Positions 4,572 through 17,595 of a DNA stretch of 64,000 nucleotides are shown piece after piece. A model generated the notes under the pieces. It saw only the letters and a program-made list of their open reading frames with translations, was not told the DNA's origin and did no database searches. The position numbers and the translations under genes were made by a program. Position 1 is the first letter of the stretch. Every line of letters begins with the position of its first letter. This DNA comes from an uncultured Bacteroidia bacterium. Its GTDB lineage: Bacteria; Bacteroidota; Bacteroidia; Bacteroidales; Prolixibacteraceae. The stretch is taken from the NCBI GenBank assembly GCA_903918045.1, contig CAIXCY010000082.1:63730-127729 (forward strand), written 5' to 3'.

Positions 4572-5147
4572 TTATATGGTCCTCAATTCCGGTGAAATGG
4601 ATCGGGATGATGGATTTTGGAAAATTGAATTTCCATTTATGACCTCAGTTGCCAGCTCATTTTGCCAAATTCCATTTACCGGTGGGTCATAAGTCATCAG
4701 TGAAAGGTCCTGATTATATAATGCTCCGCTTTGTCTGAATCCTAATTTATTCAGAATATGAATCATCGGCTGCTTTCGCGTCGTCGCATAAATTGGGAGG
4801 GACCTGATCTGATAAAAAATTGTTGTAAGCAACTGTTGACAATGCCCCTGATTTTCAAAATCAGGATGCGTAACAATATAACCAAGCTCCTTATGGTAAT
4901 TTTTCGATGATTCCAGATCCGCCAGCCGAAAAACTTTTTCTTTATACTCTTTGTATGGGTTCTTTAAAGTTGCTGTACAAATAACAGTCCCGTCGAGAAT
5001 CATATAACCGACAAAATCGGCATGACCGATTAAGATTCTGATCGCCTGACGATCCCCTTTTATTTGTCCGCCCCTGACAATTAGATCAATAATCTGGCTC
5101 AGATGCACCTCATCAATTTTGTTTGGCTTGCTTATTCTGATTTCCAT
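4572..5147 (-). CDS. GNAT-family N-acetyltransferase
   Basis: 'GYIVTHPDFENQGHCQQLLTTI' fits the GNAT motif A (Q/RxxGxG/A-like). I chose the internal ATG at 5147 (MEIRISK...) over the ORF-track start at 5213. Confidence 0.55.
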   Translation of the reverse strand: MEIRISKPNKIDEVHLSQIIDLIVRGGQIKGDRQAIRILIGHADFVGYMILDGTVICTATLKNPYKEYKEKVFRLADLESSKNYHKELGYIVTHPDFENQGHCQQLLTTIFYQIRSLPIYATTRKQPMIHILNKLGFRQSGALYNQDLSLMTYDPPVNGIWQNELATEVINGNSIFQNPSSRSISPELRTI

Positions 5148-5385
5148 ATCTCCTCCGATTTTGATTCGAAAATAGGTTATCACTATTACAGAAATATTCC
5201 AAAATGGATACAATACGATTAAACCTCCTTTTAAAATTTCAGATTGAAACCGGAATATTTCAACGAATCGTTATTCACTTCTCTCTTTTTAATCAGAATG
5301 TAATATATTCGCAACGAAAGTTTAACACCTTAAAAGGAAGTTTGCATTTTTACCAATAAAGCCGAAAATCATCTTAACCGTCTAT

Positions 5386-6138
5386 ATGGAAAAAATAAGG
5401 TTGGTAATTTTTGATCTTTCCGGGACTACGGTTAGTGACGATAATGCAGTTGCGAAATGTCTGTTTGAGGGGGCGCAACATTTTGGTCTGCGGACTACAA
5501 TTGAGGATTTTGAAAAAACGATTGGAACCAATAAAATTCATTTGTATGAATTTATGCTTGCCAGAGACTTTGGAGAGCCTGTTCAAATTGAGAACCTTGA
5601 GCAATATCTTTTTCCACAGTACCATAATCAGGCGATTGAAATATTTAAGTATTACTCGGTTCTTATGATCGATCATTACAAGAGAGCAGTAAAAGCTATT
5701 CCCGGAACTGAAGAGACCTTTAACTGGTGCCATAACAATGACATTAAGGTAGTTACGGATACCGGATTTCACAAGGATGTAAATACCGCTATCATGGATG
5801 GACTGCAATGGAGAGAGCGGGGACTCGTAGATTTTGCGCTGGACGTGGAAGACACAGGCGAAATTGGAAGGCCTGCCCCGTTTATGATTTTCAAGGCAAT
5901 GGCTCTGACTGGAGTGCAAAGTGTCCATGAAGTAATTAAAATCGGTGATACACCCGCGGACCTTCTTTCAGGCTATAATGCTGGCTGTAAAGGAAATATC
6001 GGTGTATTGAGCGGTGCTAACCGCATTGAAACATTAAGAATTTATCCCCATACCCATATTATTAACAGTGTTGCTGACCTTCCTGAACTGATTGGCAAAA
6101 CGTTTAATGGTTCACCTAATAAATTAAGAATTGTATGA
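5386..6138 (+). CDS. Phosphonatase-like HAD hydrolase (PhnX paralogue)
   Basis: Motif I 'FDLSGTT' compares with PhnX 'FDWAGT'. It has a cap-domain 'GTNKIH' (Lys-His as in the PhnX Schiff-base region), 'GRPAPFMIFKA' (Arg rather than the usual HAD Lys) and 'GDTPADL'. Confidence 0.65.
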   Translation: MEKIRLVIFDLSGTTVSDDNAVAKCLFEGAQHFGLRTTIEDFEKTIGTNKIHLYEFMLARDFGEPVQIENLEQYLFPQYHNQAIEIFKYYSVLMIDHYKRAVKAIPGTEETFNWCHNNDIKVVTDTGFHKDVNTAIMDGLQWRERGLVDFALDVEDTGEIGRPAPFMIFKAMALTGVQSVHEVIKIGDTPADLLSGYNAGCKGNIGVLSGANRIETLRIYPHTHIINSVADLPELIGKTFNGSPNKLRIV

Positions 6139-7454
6139 CAGTACCAATGTCCACTTCCACTCCTAAAATAAAAGCACAGGAGATTCGTTTCGTTATTTTT
6201 GCCGCAATTGCGGCCTTTATAACCTACCTGAGCATGTATGCTTTTAGAAAACCCTTTTCTGCCGGCACATTCGATGGTCTTGCGATCTGGGGCATCGATT
6301 ATAAAATCCTCCTGATAATCTCCCAGTTAATCGGTTATACACTATCTAAATATTTGGGTATTAAAATAATATCTGAATTAAATCATGATAGTCGGACCAA
6401 AACACTAATTTTTCTAATGGGTACTGCATGGGTTATGCTCTTGCTCTTTGCAATTATTCCTTACCCCTACAATTTCCCGTTTATGTTTCTGAACGGTTTG
6501 CCGCTGGGGATGATCTGGGGAGTGGTATTCAGTTATATTGAAGGTCGTCGCTACACCGAATTACTTGGGGCAGTAATGGCATCAAGTTTTATACTATCCT
6601 CAGGAATTGTAAAGGGTGTAGGAAGATTTATGATTGACAATTTTCACGTCAGCGAGATGTGGATGCCTTTCCTTGTGGGCCTTGCATTTGTCCCTTTGCT
6701 TTTGCTTGGAATTTATATGCTAAGCCAGCTGCCTCCGCCGGATGAAACAGATATCGCACTTCGGACTGAACGTATTCCGATGAACAGTCATCAACGAATA
6801 GCCTTCTTCCTGAGATTTGCCCCGGGTTTTATTCTTTCTATCCTGATTTATATCGCGCTTACTATTTTTCGGGACTTGCGCGATAATTTTGCAGTAGAGT
6901 TCTGGAAGGGATTAGGATTCAGTAATACCCCTAAGATGCTGGTGATGACGGAAGTTCCTATTGCACTTTTTGTCCTTGTGATCATTTCACTGATGATTAT
7001 GATCCGAAATAACCGCCTTGCCTTTTATTCAACTTTTGCAATTATCTTTATAAGTGGCATTTTACTCCTGGGGTCGACACTTATGTTTAGCGCCGGAATT
7101 TTAGATCCTGTAAAATGGATGGTTATTGCCGGTTTTTCGATGTATCTCTCTTACCTGATTTACAACACCGTTTTTTTTGAACGATGGATTGCACACTTTC
7201 GGGTTAAGAGTAATATCGGATTTTTGATTTATGTTTCAGATGCAATCGGCTATCTTGGTAGCACAGCGGTGTTATTATTCAAAAATTTCAGTCATACAAA
7301 AATTAGTTGGGTCGAATTCCTAAAGATTAGCGCCCTCTCAACCGGTGTTATTATGGTCTTCCTCTCTTTACTCGCATTCCTTTACTTTAAGAATCTCGAG
7401 AAAAGAGCCATTTCCATAGAACCACTAATTGCTGAAAATGATGGACACAAGTAG
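6135..7454 (+). CDS. Polytopic (about 12 TM) membrane protein, putative phosphonate-related transporter
   Basis: 439 aa, hydrophobic throughout. The ATGA start/stop overlap with the upstream HAD gene suggests translational coupling. It sits inside the phosphonate cluster. Confidence 0.55.
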   Translation: MTVPMSTSTPKIKAQEIRFVIFAAIAAFITYLSMYAFRKPFSAGTFDGLAIWGIDYKILLIISQLIGYTLSKYLGIKIISELNHDSRTKTLIFLMGTAWVMLLLFAIIPYPYNFPFMFLNGLPLGMIWGVVFSYIEGRRYTELLGAVMASSFILSSGIVKGVGRFMIDNFHVSEMWMPFLVGLAFVPLLLLGIYMLSQLPPPDETDIALRTERIPMNSHQRIAFFLRFAPGFILSILIYIALTIFRDLRDNFAVEFWKGLGFSNTPKMLVMTEVPIALFVLVIISLMIMIRNNRLAFYSTFAIIFISGILLLGSTLMFSAGILDPVKWMVIAGFSMYLSYLIYNTVFFERWIAHFRVKSNIGFLIYVSDAIGYLGSTAVLLFKNFSHTKISWVEFLKISALSTGVIMVFLSLLAFLYFKNLEKRAISIEPLIAENDGHK

Positions 7455-8790
7455 TTTATTTACAGAGGGGGATATCAATAGCTCCGATGAACGGAGAATG
7501 TGGAATCAACAGATTGCCGACCCGTTGTCGCGAGAGGTGCTCAATGACGATGCCCGTTATTTTTTACATCAGTCCATGTCGACACCCTGTCTCGATGTCT
7601 TGGAAAGTTGCAAAGGGAGTGGGATGAAAACCCTTTCAGGCAAATACTTACTCGATTTCCATGGAAATAATGTGCACCAGCTGGGTTATGGGAATGACTA
7701 TATAATAGGTCAGATCAAGGCACAAATGGATCGTTTGTCGTTCTCACCGCGTCGGTATACCAATCAACCAGCTGTTGAATTAGCCAAAAAACTGGCGGCA
7801 CTCCTTCCGGGAGATCTGAACCGTTCCTTATTTGCACCGGGTGGCACCTCTGTTATTGGAATTGCTTTGAAACTGGCAAGGGTGGTCACTGGTAAACACA
7901 AGATTGTTTCGCTCTGGGACTCTTTTCACGGCGCCTCGATGGATGCAATTTCAGCGGGTGGGGAGGCAGTTTTCAAGAAACACCTGGGTCCAATGATGCC
8001 TGGAGTAATCGGCATTCCTCCCCCGACCCATTATCGCGGGATTTTTGGTTTTACAGACAATGATCAACTCAGATATGCCGACTACCTCGAATATGTTATT
8101 GAAAAAGAGGGGGATATTGGCGCCTTTATTGCTGAAACAATTCGTAATACCGACGTTCAGATTCCCACAAAAACTTACTGGAAACGAGTTCGCGAAATCT
8201 GCGACAAGCATGGGGTACTCTTAATTCTGGATGAAATTCCAATTGCCCTTGGACGCACCGGAAAAATGTTTGCTTTTGAGAATTTCGGAATTGAACCAGA
8301 TATCCTTTGTCTTGGAAAGGGGCTAGGTGGAGGAATAATCCCCTTTGCTGCAATGATTGCCAGAGACAGGTTCAATGTGGCCTCAGATGTCTCACTTGGC
8401 CACTACACCCATGAAAAAAATCCGCTTGGAAGCGTGGCTGCAAATGCAACGATATCCTATCTTGAAGATCATAATTTATTGCAAAAAGTAACCTCCGACG
8501 GTGTGTGGATGCATTCGCAGTTAAACGGGTTAAAAGAGCGATTTCAATTAATCGGTGATATCCGCGGGATCGGACTTTTGTGGGGAATAGAACTGGTCAG
8601 GAACCGTACAACAAAGGAGAAGGCAAACCGCGAGGCGGAGAAAATAATGTACCATTGTATGCGTGAAGGGTTAAGTTTTAAAGTTTCACAAGGAAATGTT
8701 TTGCAGCTCTCTCCTGCCCTTACGATCAGCCGTGAGGAATTAGCATCGGCTTTGGTAATTTTAACCTCCGCCTTGGAAAGTCTAATCTAA
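7438..8790 (+). CDS. Class-III aminotransferase-fold PLP enzyme (possible PbfA-like aminophosphonate lyase or transaminase)
   Basis: 'DSFHGAS', 'LILDEIP..GRTGKMFAFE' and 'LCLGKGLGGG' (PLP Lys) are class-III aminotransferase hallmarks. The ATG at 7438 is preferred over the TTG at 7429. Confidence 0.8.
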   Translation: MMDTSSLFTEGDINSSDERRMWNQQIADPLSREVLNDDARYFLHQSMSTPCLDVLESCKGSGMKTLSGKYLLDFHGNNVHQLGYGNDYIIGQIKAQMDRLSFSPRRYTNQPAVELAKKLAALLPGDLNRSLFAPGGTSVIGIALKLARVVTGKHKIVSLWDSFHGASMDAISAGGEAVFKKHLGPMMPGVIGIPPPTHYRGIFGFTDNDQLRYADYLEYVIEKEGDIGAFIAETIRNTDVQIPTKTYWKRVREICDKHGVLLILDEIPIALGRTGKMFAFENFGIEPDILCLGKGLGGGIIPFAAMIARDRFNVASDVSLGHYTHEKNPLGSVAANATISYLEDHNLLQKVTSDGVWMHSQLNGLKERFQLIGDIRGIGLLWGIELVRNRTTKEKANREAEKIMYHCMREGLSFKVSQGNVLQLSPALTISREELASALVILTSALESLI

Positions 8791-8846
8791 AAATCTGAAT
8801 TGCTTCTATTTGAATATTAAATAATAAAATCTTTAAAACGAGCATC

Positions 8847-9662
8847 ATGAAAAAACTTGAAAATATTAAGGCGGTTATTTTTGACTGGGCAGGAACAATC
8901 ATCGACTTCGGATGCATCGCCCCAACACAGGTATTTATTGAGGTATTCGAACGAAGGGGAATCAAAGTGACAGTTGATGAGGCCCGCGGGCCCATGGGCC
9001 TTGCCAAAAAAGACCATGTTCGCGCACTAATCAGGCTTGAATCAGTTGAACAACAGTGGAATAAAAAATTTGGAGTATCACCATCCGAATCCGATGTAGA
9101 TGCCATTTATGCCGAGCTGAATCCTGGTCTTGCGCTGATTGTAAAAAACTTTAGTGAACCCATTCCCGGAGCAATCGAATTAATTAATCAGCTAAAAAGC
9201 CAAGGGATTAAAGTTGGCACAACAACCGGATATGTTGTTGAAATGATGGATAATATTCTGCCTCTGGCTTCGGCTGCCGGATTAATACCCGATTCAGTCG
9301 TAAATTCCTCTGAAGTAGTATTTGGCAGACCTGCACCCTGGATGATCTACAAAAATTGTGAAATAATGGATGTTTATCCACTATCAGCGATGGTGAAAAT
9401 CGGGGATACTGTGGCCGATATCCAGGAGGGGATTAACGCCGGGTTATGGACTATCGGCCTCACAAAATCGGGAAACGAGGTGGGGCTATCCCATGAAGAG
9501 GCAGAAAAAGCAGACCCTTCATGGCTAAAGGAGAGAATTGGTTTTGCTTCACATAAACTACTTGACGCCGGAGCCGACTTTGTAGCCGAAGGTGTTTGGG
9601 AGTGCTGGCCAATCCTTGAAGAGATAGACCGCAGAATTGCACAAAAATCAGGTAAGATTTAG
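8847..9662 (+). CDS. phnX: Phosphonoacetaldehyde hydrolase (phosphonatase)
   Basis: 'AVIFDWAGTIIDFGC', 'ARGPMGLAKKDHV', 'GRPAPWMIY' and 'GDTVADI' are the PhnX-specific HAD motifs. Confidence 0.9.
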   Translation: MKKLENIKAVIFDWAGTIIDFGCIAPTQVFIEVFERRGIKVTVDEARGPMGLAKKDHVRALIRLESVEQQWNKKFGVSPSESDVDAIYAELNPGLALIVKNFSEPIPGAIELINQLKSQGIKVGTTTGYVVEMMDNILPLASAAGLIPDSVVNSSEVVFGRPAPWMIYKNCEIMDVYPLSAMVKIGDTVADIQEGINAGLWTIGLTKSGNEVGLSHEEAEKADPSWLKERIGFASHKLLDAGADFVAEGVWECWPILEEIDRRIAQKSGKI

Positions 9663-9707
9663 ACTTTAAACTATTCGTATTACTTGATACTAATTTAATT
9701 TTTTAAA

Positions 9708-10811
9708 ATGGACAATAAATTATTTACCCCGGGCCCATTGAATACAAAACTTTCTGTAAAGGAGGCGATGCTTCACGATATGGGCTCACGCGACAAAGAG
9801 TTCATAAGCGTCGTAAAAGAGATAAGGGAACAACTGCTTCTATTGGCGGGGCTAACCAAAGAAGAGGGTTACGACACAGTACTGATGCAGGGCTCCGGCA
9901 CTTTTGGGGTCGAATCGGTTATCTCAACGGCGATTCCTGCTGATGGTCATTTGTTACTCATCACTAATGGCGCTTATGGTGACAGGATCGGCGAGATGGC
10001 AAAAGTGTACGGCATTAAAACAACAACGCTAAGCTATAAGGAAAATATTGTCCCACCGGCTCAGGACGTTGAAGAGGTTCTGAAAACAGATAGCACTGTT
10101 ACCCATGTAGCGATAATCCATTGCGAAACCACGACCGGAATATTCAATGACATTGAGCGAATTGGGTACTTAGCCCGTAAATATAATAAAATTTATATCG
10201 TCGATGCAATGAGCAGTTTCGGTGCTGTCCCCATTGATTTTAAAAAATTTGATATTGATTTTCTAATCTCTTCATCCAATAAATGCATCGAAGGGGTTCC
10301 CGGGTTTTCGTTTATAATCTTCAAAGTGAGTTCACTTGAAAGTTGCAAAGCGAATGCGCGGACTGTATCACTGGACCTCTACAGCCAATGGGCCTACATG
10401 AGGAACAGCAATTCATTTCGTTATACCCCTCCAATTCAAACAATTCTGGCCTTTCACAAAGCTCTTGCCATCTTAAAGGAAGAGGGGGGAATTCCCAAAC
10501 GATCGGAACGGTATCAGCAGAACTACCACCGGTTAATCGAAGGAACTGAAGCGCTCGGATTAAGAACCTACCTCAACAAAGAAGATCAGGGGTATATTAT
10601 TACTTCATTCCTTTTCCCGCAACATCCCAATTTCGATTTTACACAATTCTACCAAAAGCTGCACGAGCAAGGTCAGGTTATTTACCAGGGGAAGTTATCG
10701 GATACAGACTGTTTTCGGATTGGAAATATCGGCGATCTTTTTGTAACGGATATTGACCGGCTCATTTTAGCTATTGACGATGTCTTTAAAGAGATGAACA
10801 TCCACTTTTAA
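9708..10811 (+). CDS. phnW: 2-aminoethylphosphonate--pyruvate transaminase
   Basis: 'LFTPGPLNT' N terminus and 'SSSNKCIEGVPGFSF' (PLP Lys) of class-V aminotransferases. Immediately downstream of phnX. Confidence 0.9.
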   Translation: MDNKLFTPGPLNTKLSVKEAMLHDMGSRDKEFISVVKEIREQLLLLAGLTKEEGYDTVLMQGSGTFGVESVISTAIPADGHLLLITNGAYGDRIGEMAKVYGIKTTTLSYKENIVPPAQDVEEVLKTDSTVTHVAIIHCETTTGIFNDIERIGYLARKYNKIYIVDAMSSFGAVPIDFKKFDIDFLISSSNKCIEGVPGFSFIIFKVSSLESCKANARTVSLDLYSQWAYMRNSNSFRYTPPIQTILAFHKALAILKEEGGIPKRSERYQQNYHRLIEGTEALGLRTYLNKEDQGYIITSFLFPQHPNFDFTQFYQKLHEQGQVIYQGKLSDTDCFRIGNIGDLFVTDIDRLILAIDDVFKEMNIHF

Positions 10812-10847: not shown

Positions 10848-10892
10848 AAGCAGGAGAAGATTCAACACACTGAAGCTTCTCCTGCTTTTTTT
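10848..10892 (+). terminator. Rho-independent terminator after phnW
   Basis: Perfect 12-bp stem aagcaggagaag / cttctcctgctt followed by a T run. Confidence 0.8.
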
Positions 10893-10939
10893 CGTGACCA
10901 CACCGATTTTATCCTAAATGGAACAATGATTCATCAAAT

Positions 10940-10967
10940 TGTAACAAACATGTATTTATGATGAAAT
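10940..10967 (+). promoter_or_regulatory. Three 11-bp-phased TGTAAC/TGTATT/TGAAAT hexamers (Pho-box-like)
   Basis: tgtaac at 10940, tgtatt at 10951 and tgaaat at 10962. About 90 nt upstream of ATG 11058. Confidence 0.3.
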
Positions 10968-11057: not shown

Positions 11058-11597
11058 ATGCTTATAAGATTCCTTTTACTTTTGATTCTTGCCGGTTTGA
11101 TAACGGATAGAATTTCTGCTCAAAATTCATTAGCTCTGGCAAATGCTGCAAATACACCAGGTTCGGGCTCAGCTGGATCCGGATTGTCGGTATATGAGTT
11201 CCGGATATATGTATTTGAGAATGATCTTACCTCTATTTCAGAAGATTTATTGCAGCAGCATGTTTTTGGACAACTTGTATCCAGAAAGTTATACCTGCTT
11301 GAATCCAAATATACGTTCGAGGTTCCGGTTGTTCCCGGAAACCCGCAAACAAAAACAGTGATCCGAAAACCTGCTATTTATGAGGCGGTAAGAAAGATTG
11401 AGCATTATCTTAAGAAATCGGTTAGAAAGGGTATAATGTCAAATGATGCCGCGGCAACTGCTTTCAATAAAGTATTGGATGTAGCTCTGAATGCCTTTGC
11501 TGCTGATTCCGGTAATTTTGAGAAAACGATTGAAAAGTGCGATGATTTAGTATCGCTCATTGCTCTTTTTACAAATCGGGTAAACCTCGTTTCATAG
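11058..11597 (+). CDS. Hypothetical secreted protein
   Basis: Signal peptide ending '..RISAQ'. No recognisable domain. It lies upstream of SusC on the same strand. Confidence 0.45.
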   Translation: MLIRFLLLLILAGLITDRISAQNSLALANAANTPGSGSAGSGLSVYEFRIYVFENDLTSISEDLLQQHVFGQLVSRKLYLLESKYTFEVPVVPGNPQTKTVIRKPAIYEAVRKIEHYLKKSVRKGIMSNDAAATAFNKVLDVALNAFAADSGNFEKTIEKCDDLVSLIALFTNRVNLVS

Positions 11598-11729: not shown

Positions 11730-14700
11730 ATGCAGAAATTTATTTTTTTAGTAATAACCGTCCTTCTACTGGGGAATCTTACGTTTGCTCAGAAAGCAAA
11801 TATTGAGGGTCTGGTTAAAAGCAGGACAGGAGAGCGCCTTTCGGGTGCCACCGTTTTAGTTAAAGGGACCACAAATGGAACCTTAACTGATGAAAATGGC
11901 CATTTTACAATTAAAGCCGAACCGAAAGAGATTCTGGTTGGATCGTTTATTGGTTTCGAGACTTTGGAAATTACTGTTGGAAATCAAAAAACGATCGATC
12001 TGACCTTATCCGAGCTGAAGGAGCAGCTCTCAGAAGTGGTTGTTACCGCTTTGGGTATCGAAAAACAGAAAAGCACAATCGGCTTTGCTGTAGAAGATAT
12101 CAAGGGTAGTGAACTTGTAAAGGCTAGAGAGCCAAATCCAATCAATGCACTCACAGGAAAAATTGCAGGACTTACAATCGGTTCTTCAACCGAAATGTTG
12201 GGCGCTCCAACGGTCTTGCTTCGGGGTTACGCGCCCCTTTATGTTGTTGATGGCGTTCCTGTTCAGACTGATACCTGGGATCTTAATCCGGATGATATTG
12301 AAACTTACACTGTACTTAAGGGGCCTGCAGCTGCAGCTCTTTACGGATCGAGAGGCCAGTTTGGCGCCATCCAGATTACAAGCAAACGGGGATCTAAAGA
12401 TAAACGGGGATTCAATGCAGAATTTAATTCAAGTACCATGTTTGATGGCGGATTTATTGCATTGCCTAATACTCAGGATTTATATGGTCCAGGTGATCAT
12501 GGGGTTTATGCTTTTGGAGATGGCAAAGGTGGTAACGGCGGATTAAATGATGCCGATTACGATATCTGGGGACCCGCATTAAACGGCCAGCTTATACCAC
12601 AGTATGACAGCCCTGTAGTTAATGGTGTCAGAACTGCTACCCCATGGACTGCACGTGGAAAAGATAACCTCAAGAGGTTTTTACAAACCGGGTCTTTATC
12701 GACAAACAGCTTCTCTTTTGGTGCGACAAATGGAAAAGGGGATATCCGTATGTCGGCATCACATAGCTACCAAAAAGGGATGGTGCCCAATACTGAATTG
12801 AACATGACCAATTTCAACCTTTCAGGCGGATACAATATTACACCGAAACTTAGGGTTGACGCTAACCTTGCTTACGGCAGACAATATACTCCCAATACTC
12901 CCGACGTAACTTACGGCCCCAACAGTATCATTTACAACATCACCGTATGGGGCGGAGCAGACTGGAATATTGCAGACATGCGCAACTACTGGCAGCCCGG
13001 GAAAGAGGGTGTTCAATCCAATTATGAGGAGTATACCCGTTACCACAACCCTTACTTTATGTCGTATGAATGGCTTAGGGGTCATTACAAAAATGACATG
13101 AAAGGTTATGCTTCAGTAAGCTACAAATTCAATAATTACCTTAATGTACAAGCCCGGACAGCCGTTACAACCTACGATCTTTTCAGATCTGAAAAAATGC
13201 CTTTCTCTGCTCACCCTTATGGTCGTGAACAGGCTCTCGGAGATTATCGCGAAGACAAACGAAATCTGTTTGAGAACAATACCGATCTTTTGCTCTCATT
13301 CGACAAGTACGTTCTCCCTAAATTAAGCGTTCATGCAACCGCCGGAGGAAACATCCGCACCTATGAATTCAGAAGCAGCTTTGCAACAACCGATTACCTA
13401 AACGTTCCAGGGTGGTATAACCTAAGCAACTCAAAGAACCCGGTAAAATCATACAATTTTGATGCTCCGATGCAGGTTTTAAGTGCCTATGCCACCGCTG
13501 ATATTACCTATAACGATTTTGCAACATTATCGTTAACCGGTCGTAACGACAAAAACTCAACCCTACCATCCGCCAACAATTCGTATTTCTATCCGTCGGC
13601 TTCAGCAAGTATCGAAATGTCCAAGCTTGTTAAAATCCCAACGGTAAAATCGTGGAAAATCAGAGGATCGTATGCAAACGTCGGAAGTGCACTTACTTCA
13701 AGGCAAATCGGAACAACTGATGTTACTCTTGGGTTAGGTCAACTGCAATATGGTACCACCTATTATTCCCCTTATGATGGACCCACTTATCAGAATTCAT
13801 CATCATACAATATTAACCTGATTCAGGGCCAGGCTGCCGCTGCCTATACAGGAACTATTTCGAATCCAAAACTAAAACCCAGCTCAAGTTCAGCATGGGA
13901 AGCAGGAACAGATGTAGGGATGTTTGATAATAAGCTCAGATTCGATTTCACCTATTTTTCAAGTATCGACGGCCCTCAGATTTTCAACCTTCCTATTTCA
14001 GGAGCGACCGGATTTAACAGCGCGCTTGTAAACGGTATCAAGATCCAGCGCAGGGGCTATGAGTTTACAGTTGCAGGAACACCATTCCATAATAAGGATG
14101 GGTTTAGCTGGGATATTTCGGCCAACTACTCAACCTATCAGCAGTATCTTAAAGAAATTTATCCCGGTGTTGAGAATTTAAATACATTCTTAAAAGTTGG
14201 TGACCGACTCGATAAACTCTATGAATCTGCATTTGTAAGAACTCCGGATGGTAAGATTATCAATGATGGAAGTGGTCGCCCAATCAGAAACTCTGTGAAA
14301 CAATTTTTAGGAAATGCGAACTACGACTTTACTGCAGCCATTAATAATACCCTCTCTTATAAAAATTTAAGTTTGAGGTTCCAGTTTGACGGACGCTTCG
14401 GTGGTAAGATCCAGGATTACGTTGAGAAAAAAACATTCCAGGGTGGACGTAACATTGCAACGGTTCAGGGCGCAATGGGGATTGCACGGTTAAATGACAC
14501 GAAAGGTATCAAATCCTATGTTGGAGAAGGTGTTCAAGTAAGTAACAGCACAGCAATCGCATACGATTCTGACGGAAAAGTAACAAACTACGATCAGCTA
14601 CAATATGCGCCAAATACAACTGCAACCTATCTTCAGGATTACCTGAGTCGTTGGTCAGGGACTAATGAAGCAACGATGATTAGCAGAACATTCGTGAAAC

Positions 14701-14915
14701 TGCGCGAGGTGGTTCTCACCTATACGTTGCCAAAACGTTACCTGCAAGGGACATTTATCAATCAGGCAAATATCTCGTTTGTAGGACGCAACCTGCTCTA
14801 TCTTGCAGCAAAATCTGATATCGACATCGAACAATATGCCGGAGCCAACTTTGGTTCAGACTTACAGACACCTACTCAAAGACGTATTGGATTTAACCTG
14901 AATTTCACATTCTAA
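11730..14915 (+). CDS. SusC/RagA-family TonB-linked outer membrane protein
   Basis: Signal peptide, a carboxypeptidase-regulatory-like N-domain ('IEGLVKS..GERLSGATVLVKGT'), a plug ('VLKGPAAAALYGSRG'), 1061 aa, C-terminal '...NLNFTF'. Confidence 0.9.
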   Translation: MQKFIFLVITVLLLGNLTFAQKANIEGLVKSRTGERLSGATVLVKGTTNGTLTDENGHFTIKAEPKEILVGSFIGFETLEITVGNQKTIDLTLSELKEQLSEVVVTALGIEKQKSTIGFAVEDIKGSELVKAREPNPINALTGKIAGLTIGSSTEMLGAPTVLLRGYAPLYVVDGVPVQTDTWDLNPDDIETYTVLKGPAAAALYGSRGQFGAIQITSKRGSKDKRGFNAEFNSSTMFDGGFIALPNTQDLYGPGDHGVYAFGDGKGGNGGLNDADYDIWGPALNGQLIPQYDSPVVNGVRTATPWTARGKDNLKRFLQTGSLSTNSFSFGATNGKGDIRMSASHSYQKGMVPNTELNMTNFNLSGGYNITPKLRVDANLAYGRQYTPNTPDVTYGPNSIIYNITVWGGADWNIADMRNYWQPGKEGVQSNYEEYTRYHNPYFMSYEWLRGHYKNDMKGYASVSYKFNNYLNVQARTAVTTYDLFRSEKMPFSAHPYGREQALGDYREDKRNLFENNTDLLLSFDKYVLPKLSVHATAGGNIRTYEFRSSFATTDYLNVPGWYNLSNSKNPVKSYNFDAPMQVLSAYATADITYNDFATLSLTGRNDKNSTLPSANNSYFYPSASASIEMSKLVKIPTVKSWKIRGSYANVGSALTSRQIGTTDVTLGLGQLQYGTTYYSPYDGPTYQNSSSYNINLIQGQAAAAYTGTISNPKLKPSSSSAWEAGTDVGMFDNKLRFDFTYFSSIDGPQIFNLPISGATGFNSALVNGIKIQRRGYEFTVAGTPFHNKDGFSWDISANYSTYQQYLKEIYPGVENLNTFLKVGDRLDKLYESAFVRTPDGKIINDGSGRPIRNSVKQFLGNANYDFTAAINNTLSYKNLSLRFQFDGRFGGKIQDYVEKKTFQGGRNIATVQGAMGIARLNDTKGIKSYVGEGVQVSNSTAIAYDSDGKVTNYDQLQYAPNTTATYLQDYLSRWSGTNEATMISRTFVKLREVVLTYTLPKRYLQGTFINQANISFVGRNLLYLAAKSDIDIEQYAGANFGSDLQTPTQRRIGFNLNFTF

Positions 14916-14950
14916 TAAAACGTTATTTAATTAATTTGATTCTTAGAAAC

Positions 14951-16438
14951 ATGAAAAATATTTATTTACTAATAATTGTGCTCCTGATTTCGACGACCTC
15001 CTGCCAGAAATTCTCGGCATTGGAGAAAGATCCAAATCGTCCTGGCCAGGTCCCTCCATCATTGATCTTCACAAATGTTCTTTACAACAGCTACTATTCC
15101 CCCTGGAGCGATGTCTCAAGATGGAATCAGTTCTGGTGTAGTAATTATGCCTATTACAATGATCAGACTTATGATTGGACAAATACAAGTTTTAATTATG
15201 CTCAGCTTCAGAATGTTAAGCAAATGACAGCCGAGGCTACGCGTGTGGGTTTACCGGTTAACAATCCTTATGCAGCCCTGGGAAAATTCTTCTATGCCTA
15301 TTTCTTTGTGGATATGTCGATGAAACTGGGAGATATTCCAATGACTGATGCGCTAAAAGGGCTGGATAATACACAGCCAAAGTACGACACACAAAAAGCT
15401 GTTTTCAAACAGTCTTTGGCCTGGCTTGACGAGGCAAACAGCGATTTGCAGCTGCTTATTAACAGCAACGACAATTCGTTGGTGGGTGACTTTATGCTTG
15501 GAAATGACCTGGTAAAATGGCAAAAAGTTGTAAACAGCTATAAACTAAGGTTGCTTGTAACATTAAGCAAAAAATCAGCCGATAGTGATTTGAATATTGC
15601 ATCAGCTTTCAGTGCAATTATCTCAAATCCTTCAAAATACCCGGTGATCACCTCATTGGATGACAACCTGAAATTTACATTTAATGCTTCAACAGACAAA
15701 TATCCCCTTAATCCTGATGAATACGGTAAGACCGCAACGCGTAATAATATGTCTGCGACCTATCTGAATACGCTTGTTGCGTTAAGAGATCCCAGAACAT
15801 TTATTGTTGCTGATCCGGCAGAAGCGAAAATCAAGGGGGGGTTACATACCACTGATTTTGAAGCTTATGTAGGCGCCAGCTCAGGCGAGAGTCTTGACGA
15901 TATGTCCGTAAAAATGTTAAATGGTGATTATTCACCAATCAGCAAAAATCATTACTACGGTAGTTACCTGGGAGAACCGTGTATCCAGATTGGTTATTCT
16001 GAATTGTGTTTTAATATTGCGGAAGGAATTAACCGAGGCTGGGCAAGTGGAAATGCTGAAGCTTACTATATCAATGGAATACAGGCCTCATGGACTTTTC
16101 ACGGAGCCAGTGTCGCGCCTAATTGGGATGCTTATTATATACAGTCAACAGTTAAATACAGCAGCGATAACGCAACCGCTTTAACCCAGATCCTGACACA
16201 AAAATACCTGGCATTTTTCAATAATTCAGGATGGGAAGCGTATCGGAATGCACGACGTACCGGAGTGCCAACCTTCCTCACAGGTGTAGGAACCGGAAAT
16301 AGCCAGCGCATCGCCAAAAGATGGCAATATCCAAGTTCTGAAAGAACAACCAACGCCGTTAACTATAATGCAGCTTTGACGAGCCAGTTTGGTGCAGATA
16401 CAGACGATATCAACAGCGAAATGTGGATCTTTAAATGA
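14951..16438 (+). CDS. SusD/RagB-family nutrient-binding lipoprotein
   Basis: Lipobox '..ISTTSC'. Size and position directly after SusC fit. The ATG at 14951 is preferred over the TTG at 14936. Confidence 0.8.
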   Translation: MKNIYLLIIVLLISTTSCQKFSALEKDPNRPGQVPPSLIFTNVLYNSYYSPWSDVSRWNQFWCSNYAYYNDQTYDWTNTSFNYAQLQNVKQMTAEATRVGLPVNNPYAALGKFFYAYFFVDMSMKLGDIPMTDALKGLDNTQPKYDTQKAVFKQSLAWLDEANSDLQLLINSNDNSLVGDFMLGNDLVKWQKVVNSYKLRLLVTLSKKSADSDLNIASAFSAIISNPSKYPVITSLDDNLKFTFNASTDKYPLNPDEYGKTATRNNMSATYLNTLVALRDPRTFIVADPAEAKIKGGLHTTDFEAYVGASSGESLDDMSVKMLNGDYSPISKNHYYGSYLGEPCIQIGYSELCFNIAEGINRGWASGNAEAYYINGIQASWTFHGASVAPNWDAYYIQSTVKYSSDNATALTQILTQKYLAFFNNSGWEAYRNARRTGVPTFLTGVGTGNSQRIAKRWQYPSSERTTNAVNYNAALTSQFGADTDDINSEMWIFK

Positions 16439-16517: not shown

Positions 16518-16720
16518 AAGACCACTAAAAATTGAATCTTACTGGATTTTAATCGGAATGTAACATTTTTGTATCCAAAATGAAATAATTCAATGTGATT
16601 TTTACCTTGTGTACTTTTTTAGGAAAAATAAATCCACCAGGGTGGAAAATAAAACTATAATTAAATTATATATCAGACTATTACACAAATTAAATCAACT
16701 AAAGTAAAACAATAGTAAAT

Positions 16721-17544: not shown

Positions 17545-17595
17545 TGTATTCACAATGTAATTAATCTGTAATCATACTGCATTTAAACTGTAATT
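17545..17595 (+). promoter_or_regulatory. Five helically phased TGTAAT-like hexamers (Pho-box-like array)
   Basis: tgtatt at 17545, tgtaat at 17556, tgtaat at 17567, tgcatt at 17578 and tgtaat at 17589, at an exact 11-bp period. The CTGTAAT form is close to the E. coli PhoB half-site CTGTCAT. About 50 nt before ATG 17643. Confidence 0.4.

What the first reader, a model, noticed from the sequence alone, without database searches (positions are those of the whole stretch)
5386..10811. Phosphonate cluster with two phosphonatase-type HAD enzymes and two PLP enzymes
The cluster contains the canonical phnX-phnW pair. It also encodes a second PhnX-like HAD (DLSGTT motif I, cap 'GTNKIH' retaining the Schiff-base-type Lys, Arg-containing 'GRPAPFMIF'). 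A class-III-aminotransferase-fold PLP enzyme and a 12-TM membrane protein are tightly packed with them (ATGA overlap at 6135, 17-nt overlap at 7438). PbfA, the (R)-1-hydroxy-2-aminoethylphosphonate ammonia-lyase, is known to belong to this PLP fold and to occur in AEP clusters, so the PLP enzyme may be PbfA-like. The second phosphonatase-like enzyme implies cleavage of a second 2-oxoalkylphosphonate. The membrane protein would be the importer, since no phnCDE is present.
Basis: partly seen in the sequence, partly recalled or inferred. Interest (0 to 1): 0.6.

Follow-up and report, generated by a model that had tools for sequence, protein, structure and literature searches.

The report
Phosphonate operon with a second phosphonatase
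A lake Bacteroidota genome has a five-gene operon for using natural phosphonates as nutrients: three genes are well known (PhnW, PhnX, PbfA), and the other two, a second phosphonatase-like enzyme and the unstudied membrane carrier DUF5690, look like the remains of a recently described hydroxyethylphosphonate module that lost its dehydrogenase.

Summary
Window 5386-10811 is one + strand operon with 4-nt and 17-nt gene overlaps and a strong terminator at 10848-10894. It encodes a PhnX-like HAD ("HAD-S", motif DLSGT), a DUF5690 membrane protein, PbfA, PhnX and PhnW.

PbfA, PhnX and PhnW all score above the NCBIfam cut-offs, so the AEP/R-HAEP route to phosphonoacetaldehyde (PAA) and then phosphate is the known pathway.

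DUF5690 has a major facilitator (MFS) fold. In 77 genome loci it sits beside phosphonate or phosphoester enzymes. In a sample of 301 Bacteroidota genomes, all 15 with a phosphonatase-type HAD also have DUF5690. It is the likely importer. This scan had already linked DUF5690 to phosphonates on other DNA.

HAD-S is a separate, well-supported clade inside the TIGR03351-like group. It keeps the nucleophile Asp, the Schiff-base Lys and the motif III Arg. In relatives it lies directly after a PbfG-type Zn dehydrogenase; PbfG is the HEP dehydrogenase described in Protein Sci 2026. The window's lineage has lost pbfG but keeps HAD-S under purifying selection (dN/dS about 0.07).

HAD-S is most likely a second PAA hydrolase. 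A distinct substrate is not excluded, because every HAD-S genome tested also has another phosphonatase.

Novelty and interest are moderate.

The parts
5288..5304 (+). Pho-box-like direct repeat (TTTAATCAGAATGTAAT; TGTAAT-type hexamers 11 bp apart), 82 nt upstream of the first start codon
   Evidence: One search gives one mismatch to TGTAAT-N5-TGTAAT. The same phased motif lies upstream of the orthologous operons in L002, L003, L005 (perfect, three repeats) and L006 (four phased hits). A regulatory role is inferred, not shown.
5386..6138 (+). HAD-S: phosphonatase-like HAD hydrolase of the 'DLSGT' clade, 250 aa
   Evidence: TIGR03351 177.9 bits (below cut-off 218.9) and TIGR01422 104.8 bits. D10, T14, K50, T126, R162, D188 and D192 align with the catalytic residues of PhnX. 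S12, N20, L53 and F128 replace Ala14, Cys22, His56 and Tyr128. The clade has 100/100 support. dN/dS is 0.06-0.09. The model has pLDDT 90 and a C1-cap HAD fold.
6135..7454 (+). DUF5690 membrane protein, 439 aa; predicted MFS-fold importer of C2 phosphonates
   Evidence: PF18943 516.8 bits. AF2 model pLDDT 84, pTM 0.83, 12 long helices. Foldseek hits are MFS transporters, including G6PT/SLC37A4, sialin and GlpT 1pw4. Neighbourhood data are and co-occurrence data.
7438..8790 (+). [quoted passage not shown]
   Evidence: NF049939 709.1 bits against cut-off 525; PF00202. The start ATG at 7438 overlaps the DUF5690 stop by 17 nt.
8847..9662 (+). PhnX, canonical phosphonoacetaldehyde hydrolase (DWAGT, Lys54, His57, Cys23, Arg161)
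   Evidence: TIGR01422 312.9 bits against cut-off 220.
9708..10811 (+). PhnW, 2-aminoethylphosphonate:pyruvate transaminase
   Evidence: NF010006 471.7 bits and TIGR02326 459.9 bits, both above cut-off.
10848..10894 (+). Intrinsic terminator closing the operon (16-pair interrupted stem followed by U7)
   Evidence: Sequence. Fold energy -25 kcal/mol, z -6.0, 0 of 200 shuffles as stable. No + strand terminator-like site lies inside 5386-10811.

Best explanation
Window 5386-10811 is a single operon for hydrolytic breakdown of two-carbon phosphonates, probably phosphate-regulated. The proposed steps are as follows. DUF5690, an MFS-fold carrier, brings the phosphonate across the inner membrane (inferred). 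PhnW transaminates 2-aminoethylphosphonate (AEP) to phosphonoacetaldehyde (PAA). PbfA converts (R)-1-hydroxy-AEP to PAA plus ammonia. PhnX cleaves PAA to acetaldehyde and phosphate. These three assignments rest on curated family models; the reactions themselves are established for characterised homologues. The extra HAD (HAD-S) belongs to a distinct 'DLSGT' clade of TIGR03351-like phosphonatase relatives. In other Bacteroidota this clade forms a three-gene module, pbfG - HAD-S - DUF5690, whose dehydrogenase PbfG oxidises 2-hydroxyethylphosphonate (HEP) to PAA. A close relative (Mariniphaga, L006) has the full operon pbfG-HAD-S-DUF5690-pbfA-phnX-phnW. The window and its two nearest relatives have lost pbfG but keep HAD-S and the carrier. 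HAD-S retains the Asp nucleophile, the cap Lys that forms the Schiff base, the Arg that replaces the motif III Lys, and the Mg-binding Asp pair. It most likely still cleaves PAA, or a very close analogue, by the PhnX mechanism (inferred).
For: Operon structure: overlaps of 4 and 17 nt, no internal terminator, a strong terminator after phnW, and conserved phased TGTAAT repeats upstream in five genomes.

Known enzymes: PbfA 709 bits (cut-off 525), PhnX 313 (220) and PhnW 460 (401). The reactions are described in PMC8154272.

DUF5690: it has an MFS fold. In 77 loci the neighbours are a PbfG-like Zn-ADH (49), a phosphonatase-type HAD (38), a PhnZ-like HD oxygenase (21), a PbfD/TIGR03364 oxidase (20), SusC (16), and PbfA/PhnW/PhnX (5-7 each). 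Elsewhere it lies beside PLC-type, PhoD, metallophosphoesterase and NPP phosphoesterases. In 301 Bacteroidota genomes DUF5690 occurs in 22. All 14 genomes with a TIGR03351-like HAD and both genomes with canonical PhnX are among those 22, and the HAD is usually adjacent.

HAD-S: the clade is monophyletic at 100/100. Catalytic residues are conserved in 19/19 locus sequences, and DLSGT occurs in 115 of 120 cluster representatives. A PbfG-like gene lies directly upstream in 19 of 22 informative loci. That ADH carries residues matching the published PbfG substrate and Zn ligands: C43, S45, R54, H64, H123 and C165 against Cys45, Ser47, Arg56, His66, His124 and Cys166 (PMC13576164). PbfG makes PAA (PMC13576164). 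Related H-type HADs are the only phosphonatase-type HAD in genomes where the partner is PbfD or PbfA, which also make PAA.

Gene state: the own genome lacks PbfG. HAD-S dN/dS is 0.06-0.09, the same as PhnX, so the gene is functional.
Against: No TIGR03351-like enzyme has a published activity that I could find, and HAD-S scores below both curated cut-offs.

A plain second PAA hydrolase in the same operon as PhnX should be dispensable, yet it has been kept under strong purifying selection since pbfG was lost (dS about 1).

Every HAD-S genome or locus examined also has another phosphonatase-type HAD: 11 within the locus and 5 of 5 elsewhere in the genome.

The same gene set (PbfG, DUF5690, PbfD, PhnZ-like, H-type HAD) exists with and without HAD-S, which suggests HAD-S adds something.

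HAD-S has its own invariant polar residues at or next to positions that line the PhnX active site (S12, N20, T48, N49, D125, H129).

Transport by DUF5690 and co-transcription are not shown.
Confidence: 0.55

Rival explanations
1. HAD-S is a C-P hydrolase with a substrate different from PAA. Candidates are 1-hydroxy-2-oxoethylphosphonate (from slow transamination or oxidation of HAEP, or from a dihydroxyethylphosphonate) and 2-oxopropylphosphonate. It would widen the range of phosphonates the operon can mineralise, while PhnX or the H-type HAD handles PAA.
For: HAD-S always co-occurs with another phosphonatase-type HAD (16 of 16 cases). It is an add-on to an otherwise identical gene set. It has been maintained at dN/dS about 0.07 beside PhnX after pbfG loss. 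It has clade-specific invariant polar residues near the PhnX substrate positions, plus Ser in place of Ala at +2. The PbfA paper reports that PhnW/PhnX deal poorly with HAEP.
Against: Its usual upstream partner PbfG is reported to be specific for HEP and makes PAA (PMC13576164). Separate HEP and AEP clusters, each with its own PAA hydrolase, are the published norm. No candidate source enzyme for an alternative 2-oxo substrate is encoded in the window. There are no biochemical data.
Confidence: 0.3
2. HAD-S is not a C-P hydrolase at all. It would be a phosphatase, or a non-catalytic or regulatory partner of the carrier, kept only because its gene is translationally coupled to DUF5690.
For: The scores are below the cut-off for both phosphonatase models. 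Ser at +2 resembles the Thr of P-type ATPase DKTGT more than the Ala of PhnX (my own knowledge). Fold search does not separate it from ordinary HAD phosphatases. The ATGA coupling to DUF5690 is conserved in L002 and L003.
Against: It lacks the Asp+2 general acid that HAD phosphomonoesterases need. It keeps the two phosphonatase-specific features, the cap Lys and the motif III Arg, in 19/19 and 120/120 sequences. Its nearest relatives by profile are phosphonatase families, by a margin of 70-140 bits over any phosphatase model. Purifying selection acts over the whole protein.
Confidence: 0.08
3. DUF5690 is not the importer of the substrate. It could instead export a product or work only as a phosphate/organophosphate exchanger, with uptake by an unidentified system.
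For: The family also lies next to phosphoesterases with no phosphonate enzyme nearby, for example in Dyella and Rhodanobacter. Direction of transport cannot be read from sequence. Structural neighbours include antiporters (G6PT, GlpT) and efflux pumps (NorA, MdfA).
Against: No PhnD-type binding protein is found in the genome and no other transporter is in the operon. DUF5690 is the one gene shared by AEP-type, HEP-type and PbfD-type clusters. All 15 sampled genomes with a phosphonatase-type HAD have it. Antiport with phosphate would still amount to import of the phosphonate.
Confidence: 0.12

Closest known systems
PhnW-PhnX hydrolytic AEP pathway with the ancillary lyase PbfA (Zangelmi et al. 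2021, PMC8154272)
   Same: phnW, phnX and pbfA are all present, above curated cut-offs, and clustered in one operon. About 13% of phnWX clusters are reported to carry pbfA.
   Different: This operon adds a second phosphonatase-like HAD and uses a DUF5690 carrier instead of an ABC system (PhnSTUV, AepXVW) or AepP. Canonical PhnX is rare in Bacteroidota, found in 2 of 301 sampled genomes.
PbfG-type HEP degradation clusters, pbfG plus phnX plus transporter (Piazza et al. 2026, PMC13576164)
   Same: In relatives, HAD-S and DUF5690 follow a Zn-ADH that carries the PbfG ligand residues. The paper lists Bacteroidota among the phyla with such clusters.
   Different: The window has no pbfG, in the locus or in the genome. 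The paper calls the hydrolase simply 'phnX' and does not name the transporter family. Here the hydrolase is a separate clade and shares an operon with a canonical PhnX.
TIGR03351 'phosphonatase-like hydrolase' (HpnX of the proposed HpnWXZ pathway)
   Same: It is the best-scoring family. HAD-S shares the cap Lys, the motif III Arg and the missing Asp+2, and sits inside that radiation in the tree.
   Different: The score is below the cut-off (177.9 against 218.9). The motif is DLSGT rather than DxAGT. There is a 14-residue cap insertion, and here the gene is linked to phnW. The family itself is only a hypothetical equivalog with no assay.
AepP, the AEP permease of Pseudomonas putida BIRD-1 (Murphy et al. 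2021, PMC8316502)
   Same: It is a single-component MFS carrier encoded in AEP catabolic clusters, so it has the same proposed role.
   Different: AepP is a GlpT-like organophosphate:phosphate antiporter family member. DUF5690 matches no GlpT/UhpC or MFS_1 model at E<=0.001, and only its fold places it in the MFS.

Membership tests
PbfA (NF049939, R-HAEP ammonia-lyase) | Whole-protein score above the curated equivalog cut-off | tested here: met
   709.1 bits against 525, matching model positions 1-441 of 442.
PbfA (NF049939, R-HAEP ammonia-lyase) | Located in a phnW plus phnX (or phnYA) cluster | tested here: met
   It is in the same operon as phnX and phnW. PbfA is also found beside DUF5690 in 6 other loci.
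PbfA (NF049939, R-HAEP ammonia-lyase) | Elimination of ammonia from R-HAEP giving PAA | not testable with these tools
   This needs an enzyme assay.
PhnX (TIGR01422), gene 8847-9662 | Score above cut-off and the residues Asp12, Ala14, Cys22, Lys53, His56, Tyr128, Arg160 | tested here: met
   312.9 bits against 220. DWAGT, C23, K54, H57, Y129 and R161 are all present.
PhnX (TIGR01422), gene 5386-6138 (HAD-S) | Score above the curated cut-off | tested here: not met
   104.8 bits against 220. In the tree it is separated from PhnX by a branch of about 3 changes per site.
PhnX (TIGR01422), gene 5386-6138 (HAD-S) | Core mechanism residues: Asp nucleophile, cap Schiff-base Lys, motif III Arg, motif IV Asp pair, no Asp at +2 | tested here: met
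   D10, K50, R162, D188 and D192 are invariant in 19/19 sequences, and +2 is Ser.
PhnX (TIGR01422), gene 5386-6138 (HAD-S) | Cap residues Cys22, His56 and Tyr128 around the Schiff base | tested here: not met
   They are replaced by N20, L53 (with His/Lys/Arg one position earlier) and F128.
TIGR03351 phosphonatase-like hydrolase | Score above cut-off; DxAGT motif | tested here: not met
   177.9 bits against 218.9. The motif is DLSGT in 115 of 120 relatives. The gene is nested in the wider TIGR03351-like radiation.
PhnW (TIGR02326) | Score above cut-off | tested here: met
   459.9 bits against 400.8, and NF010006 471.7 against 296.
Major facilitator superfamily (for DUF5690) | Twelve transmembrane helices in two six-helix bundles, MFS fold | tested here: met
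   The model has pTM 0.83. There are 368 PDB matches at E<=0.001, and those listed are MFS carriers with TM 0.55-0.64.
Organophosphate:phosphate antiporter family (GlpT/UhpT/AepP) | Sequence membership (GlpT-type profile match) | tested here: not met
   There is no NCBIfam hit, and the only Pfam hit is DUF5690, at E<=0.001. G6PT and GlpT appear only as fold neighbours among many other MFS carriers.
PbfG-type HEP catabolic module | Presence of a PbfG dehydrogenase (Zn ligands Cys, His, Cys; Arg, His, Ser for the phosphonate) | tested here: not met
   It is absent from the window and the genome: the best Zn-ADH scores 117.6 bits and lacks R54, H123 and C165. It is present directly upstream of HAD-S in L006 and 18 other loci.

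The most novel reading that the evidence does not exclude
HAD-S is not a spare PAA hydrolase. It would be a phosphonatase with its own substrate, for example 1-hydroxy-phosphonoacetaldehyde derived from HAEP that PbfA cannot use. That would explain why it never occurs without a second phosphonatase and why it survived the loss of pbfG. Together with DUF5690 as a new phosphonate-importer family, this would add a new C-P cleavage specificity to the hydrolytic pathways.
Probability: 0.25. Interest if true: 0.65.

Novelty: new variant of a known kind. Interest (0 to 1): 0.4.

Why it matters
Phosphonates are a large pool of organic phosphorus in lakes and oceans. The enzymes for AEP, HAEP and, since 2026, HEP are known, but two gaps remain. 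The inner-membrane carrier used by Bacteroidota has not been studied, and no TIGR03351-like 'phosphonatase-like' enzyme has been assayed.

This locus and its relatives address both gaps. They give a clear importer candidate: DUF5690 is present in every sampled Bacteroidota genome that has a phosphonatase-type HAD. They also define a phosphonatase subclade (DLSGT) that always accompanies another phosphonatase. That pattern means either a regulatory or kinetic division of labour, or an unrecognised substrate. Both questions can be settled by simple assays.

Tried and rejected
Expression: no RNA holder was listed for the stretch, so co-expression could not be tested.

Fused forms of HAD-S: a search of longer proteins found none, which is weak evidence.

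Fold search of the HAD-S model: PhnX structures rank 4th to 8th, but ordinary HAD phosphatases score equally well, so the fold does not discriminate function.

Sigma-70 promoter scan: 19 sites against 20.2 expected, so it is uninformative. Bacteroidota promoters are not covered by the tool. The terminator scan missed the real terminator because of its long interrupted stem.

Supplementary tables of the PbfG paper are not held. Identity to the published PbfG was therefore judged from family score and ligand residues only.

The idea that another Zn-ADH in the genome replaces PbfG was rejected, because the signature residues are absent.

No PbfA structure exists in the PDB copy.

A complex prediction for HAD-S with DUF5690 was considered and not run, because gene adjacency alone is not reason enough.

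The weak GNAT hits of the divergent upstream gene (E 0.003-0.02) were not taken as evidence for a PhnO-like acetyltransferase.
Full report
**1. What is there**

The window carries five co-directional ORFs on the + strand:
- 5386-6138, 250 aa
- 6135-7454, 439 aa
- 7429/7438-8790, 450 aa from ATG 7438
- 8847-9662, 271 aa
- 9708-10811, 367 aa

The first two overlap by ATGA. The second and third overlap by 17 nt. The remaining gaps are 56 and 45 nt.

No + strand terminator-like site lies inside the block. Directly after phnW there is a strong hairpin at 10848-10887 followed by seven U residues. Its energy is -25 kcal/mol with z -6.0, and 0 of 200 shuffles fold as well. This is the anatomy of one operon. 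Transcription itself could not be checked because no RNA run holds the sequence.

The DNA is held by lake, pond and freshwater metagenomes. The nearest loci are from Prolixibacteraceae and Bacteroidia MAGs.

**2. The known part**

Curated NCBIfam models place three products above their cut-offs:
- PbfA: NF049939, 709.1 bits against 525
- PhnX: TIGR01422, 312.9 against 220
- PhnW: TIGR02326, 459.9 against 400.8

A phnW-phnX-pbfA cluster is a published arrangement: PhnW makes phosphonoacetaldehyde (PAA) from AEP, PbfA makes PAA from (R)-HAEP, and PhnX cleaves PAA (PMC8154272).

**3. The membrane protein**

It is a full-length member of Pfam DUF5690 (516.8 bits). It matches no transporter model by sequence.

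A model built on 12 homologues has pLDDT 84, pTM 0.83 and twelve long helices. Foldseek finds only major-facilitator carriers, among them G6PT/SLC37A4, sialin, GlpT, NorA and MdfA, with TM 0.55-0.64.

The family alignment has invariant basic motifs at the ends of helices 1 and 7 (YAFRKPF and FRDLRDNF). I note these as a pseudo-symmetric pair. I did not establish equivalence to the GlpT arginines.

*Context in 80 species-level genomes.* I called ORFs, clustered them and annotated the clusters. Of 77 loci with the gene intact:
- 49 have a Zn-dependent alcohol dehydrogenase directly upstream
- 38 have a phosphonatase-type HAD
- 21 have a PhnZ-like HD oxygenase (TIGR03276)
- 20 have a TIGR03364/PbfD-type FAD oxidase
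- 16 have a SusC and 11 a SusD
- 5-7 have each of PbfA, PhnW and PhnX

Loci without phosphonate enzymes carry phospholipase-C-type, PhoD, metallophosphoesterase or NPP-type phosphoesterases instead.

*Whole-genome test.* In 301 good-quality Bacteroidota genomes, DUF5690 occurs in 22. TIGR03351-like HADs occur in 14 and canonical PhnX in 2. All 15 genomes with either hydrolase are among the 22, and the genes are mostly adjacent. Related genomes are not independent, but 11 genera are involved.

The own genome has no PhnD and no C-P lyase PhnJ.

DUF5690 is therefore the best candidate for the inner-membrane phosphonate carrier. I found no paper saying so. An earlier follow-up in this scan reached the same family-level conclusion on other DNA.

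**4. The second HAD**

The quoted motifs are real. Aligned to Bacillus cereus PhnX and to 47 HADs from the loci, the conserved positions are:
- D10 = Asp12, the nucleophile
- T14 = Thr16
- K50 = Lys53, the Schiff base
- T126 = Thr126
- R162 = Arg160
- D188 and D192 = Asp186 and Asp190

These are invariant in all 19 relatives. The replaced positions are S12 for Ala14, N20 for Cys22, I46 for Met49, L53 for His56 (with His, Lys or Arg one position earlier) and F128 for Tyr128.

Among 120 cluster representatives at 60% identity or more, 115 read DLSGT, and all keep GTNKI and nearly all GRPxP.

The protein scores 177.9 bits on TIGR03351 (cut-off 218.9) and 104.8 on PhnX. A maximum-likelihood tree resolves three groups:
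- canonical PhnX (DWAGT)
- a broad H-type group (D[MIL]AGT) that straddles the TIGR03351 cut-off at 176-234 bits
- the window's type, called HAD-S here, which is a 100/100 clade on a long stem nested in the H-type radiation

The AF2 model (pLDDT 90) is a C1-cap HAD. The fold does not separate phosphonatases from phosphatases.

**5. What HAD-S goes with**

HAD-S lies directly upstream of DUF5690 in nearly all loci. In 19 of 22 informative loci it lies directly downstream of the Zn-ADH. The three exceptions are the window and its two closest relatives, L002 and L003.

A paper of September 2026 identifies exactly such pf00107, threonine-dehydrogenase-like enzymes as PbfG. PbfG is a HEP dehydrogenase that makes PAA, and it occurs in pbfG-phnX-transporter clusters, including in Bacteroidota (PMC13576164).

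The ADHs in my loci score 316.7 bits on TIGR03366. They have invariant C43, S45, R54, H64, H123 and C165, matching the published Cys45, Ser47, Arg56, His66, His124 and Cys166.

ADH - HAD-S - DUF5690 is therefore a HEP module made of a dehydrogenase, a hydrolase and a carrier. The Mariniphaga locus L006 has pbfG-HAD-S-DUF5690-pbfA-phnX-phnW, which is the window's operon plus pbfG.

The window's genome (98.8% complete) has no PbfG. Its best Zn-ADHs score at most 117.6 bits and lack the signature residues. It also has no TIGR03364 oxidase and no PhnZ-like oxygenase.

**6. Is HAD-S a relic?**

No. Between the three pbfG-less genomes, dN/dS for HAD-S is 0.06-0.09 at dS of about 0.9-1.3. This is indistinguishable from PhnX at 0.06-0.08.

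**7. Same substrate or a different one?**

*Evidence for PAA.* PbfG makes PAA. H-type relatives are the only phosphonatase-type HAD in genomes where the partner enzymes are PbfD or PbfA, both PAA producers. So this wider clade almost certainly contains PAA hydrolases despite lacking Cys22 and His56. The PbfG paper also notes that HEP and AEP clusters are usually separate, each with its own hydrolase.

*Evidence for something more.*
- HAD-S never stands alone. Eleven loci have a second HAD (PhnX or H-type) in the same locus.
- All five further HAD-S genomes tested have an H-type HAD elsewhere, four of them beside a PbfD-like oxidase.
- The same gene set exists with and without HAD-S.
- HAD-S has its own invariant polar residues at or next to PhnX active-site positions.

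I put about 0.55 on a PAA hydrolase isozyme, about 0.3 on a distinct beta-carbonyl phosphonate such as hydroxy-PAA, and the rest on other roles. No computation available here can separate these readings.

**8. Regulation and surroundings**

A TGTAAT-type direct repeat with 11-bp spacing lies 82 nt upstream of the first ATG. The same phased motif is found upstream of the orthologous operons in four other genomes. It is perfect and triple in L005 and fourfold in L006. It also recurs before the downstream SusC/SusD unit and the TonB-receptor operon of this window.

Window-wide enrichment is weak: 18 hits against 10.5 expected, reached by 3 of 100 shuffles. The positional conservation is what counts. 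The motif resembles a Pho box, but binding is untested.

A SusC/SusD pair belongs to the same protein clusters as those next to DUF5690 in 16 and 11 loci. In this window it is preceded by a small secreted protein of no known family, and it follows the operon. This suggests an outer-membrane capture arm.

**9. Verdict**

The locus is a variant of known hydrolytic phosphonate clusters: an AEP/HAEP operon fused to a HEP module that has lost its dehydrogenase. Two parts are uncharacterised and worth an assay, DUF5690 and the DLSGT phosphonatase clade.

Noticed in passing
window 5288-5304, 10940-10967, 16548-16564, 17545-17594; L005:6891-6918; L006:6035-6084: TGTAAT-type hexamers repeated every 11 bp (Pho-box-like) lie upstream of the phosphonate operon, the SusC/SusD unit and the TonB-receptor operon. 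They also lie upstream of the orthologous phosphonate operons in four other genomes. This may be a shared phosphate-starvation operator of Bacteroidota.
   Followed up: partly
window 11058-11597 (+): A 179-aa protein with a signal peptide and no Pfam or NCBIfam family. It lies between phnW and SusC here and in L002, L005 and L006 (cluster c16).
   Followed up: partly
window 11730-16438 (+): A SusC/SusD pair. The same SusC protein cluster lies next to DUF5690 phosphonate clusters in 16 loci across several Bacteroidota families, often with PA14/PhoD/metallophosphoesterase or beta-propeller-phosphoesterase genes. This looks like a PUL-like capture arm for bound phosphonates.
   Followed up: partly
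window 4572-5213 (-): A divergently transcribed 213-aa gene conserved beside the operon in L002, L003 and L006. It has only weak GNAT/FR47 hits (E 0.003-0.02). A PhnO-like aminophosphonate acetyltransferase role is conceivable but unsupported.
   Followed up: no
L063:7593-9476: A Planctomycetaceae MAG encodes a single 627-aa PhnX-PhnW fusion (HAD plus class-V aminotransferase) directly after DUF5690.
   Followed up: no
L068, L074, L076, L080 (Dyella, Rhodanobacter): In Xanthomonadales, DUF5690 sits beside a phospholipase-C-type phosphoesterase (PF04185 plus PLipase_C_C) and not beside phosphonate enzymes. The family may also carry phosphoester head groups.
   Followed up: no
Bacteroidota sample of 301 genomes: Canonical PhnX is rare in the phylum (2 of 301), while TIGR03351-like HADs are the usual phosphonatase type (14 of 301). 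The pbfA-phnX-phnW block of this window may therefore have been acquired from outside the phylum.
   Followed up: no
L103:5651-6304: An H-type HAD beside DUF5690 and a PbfD-like oxidase reads DMSGT. Ser at the +2 position has therefore arisen outside the HAD-S clade as well.
   Followed up: no
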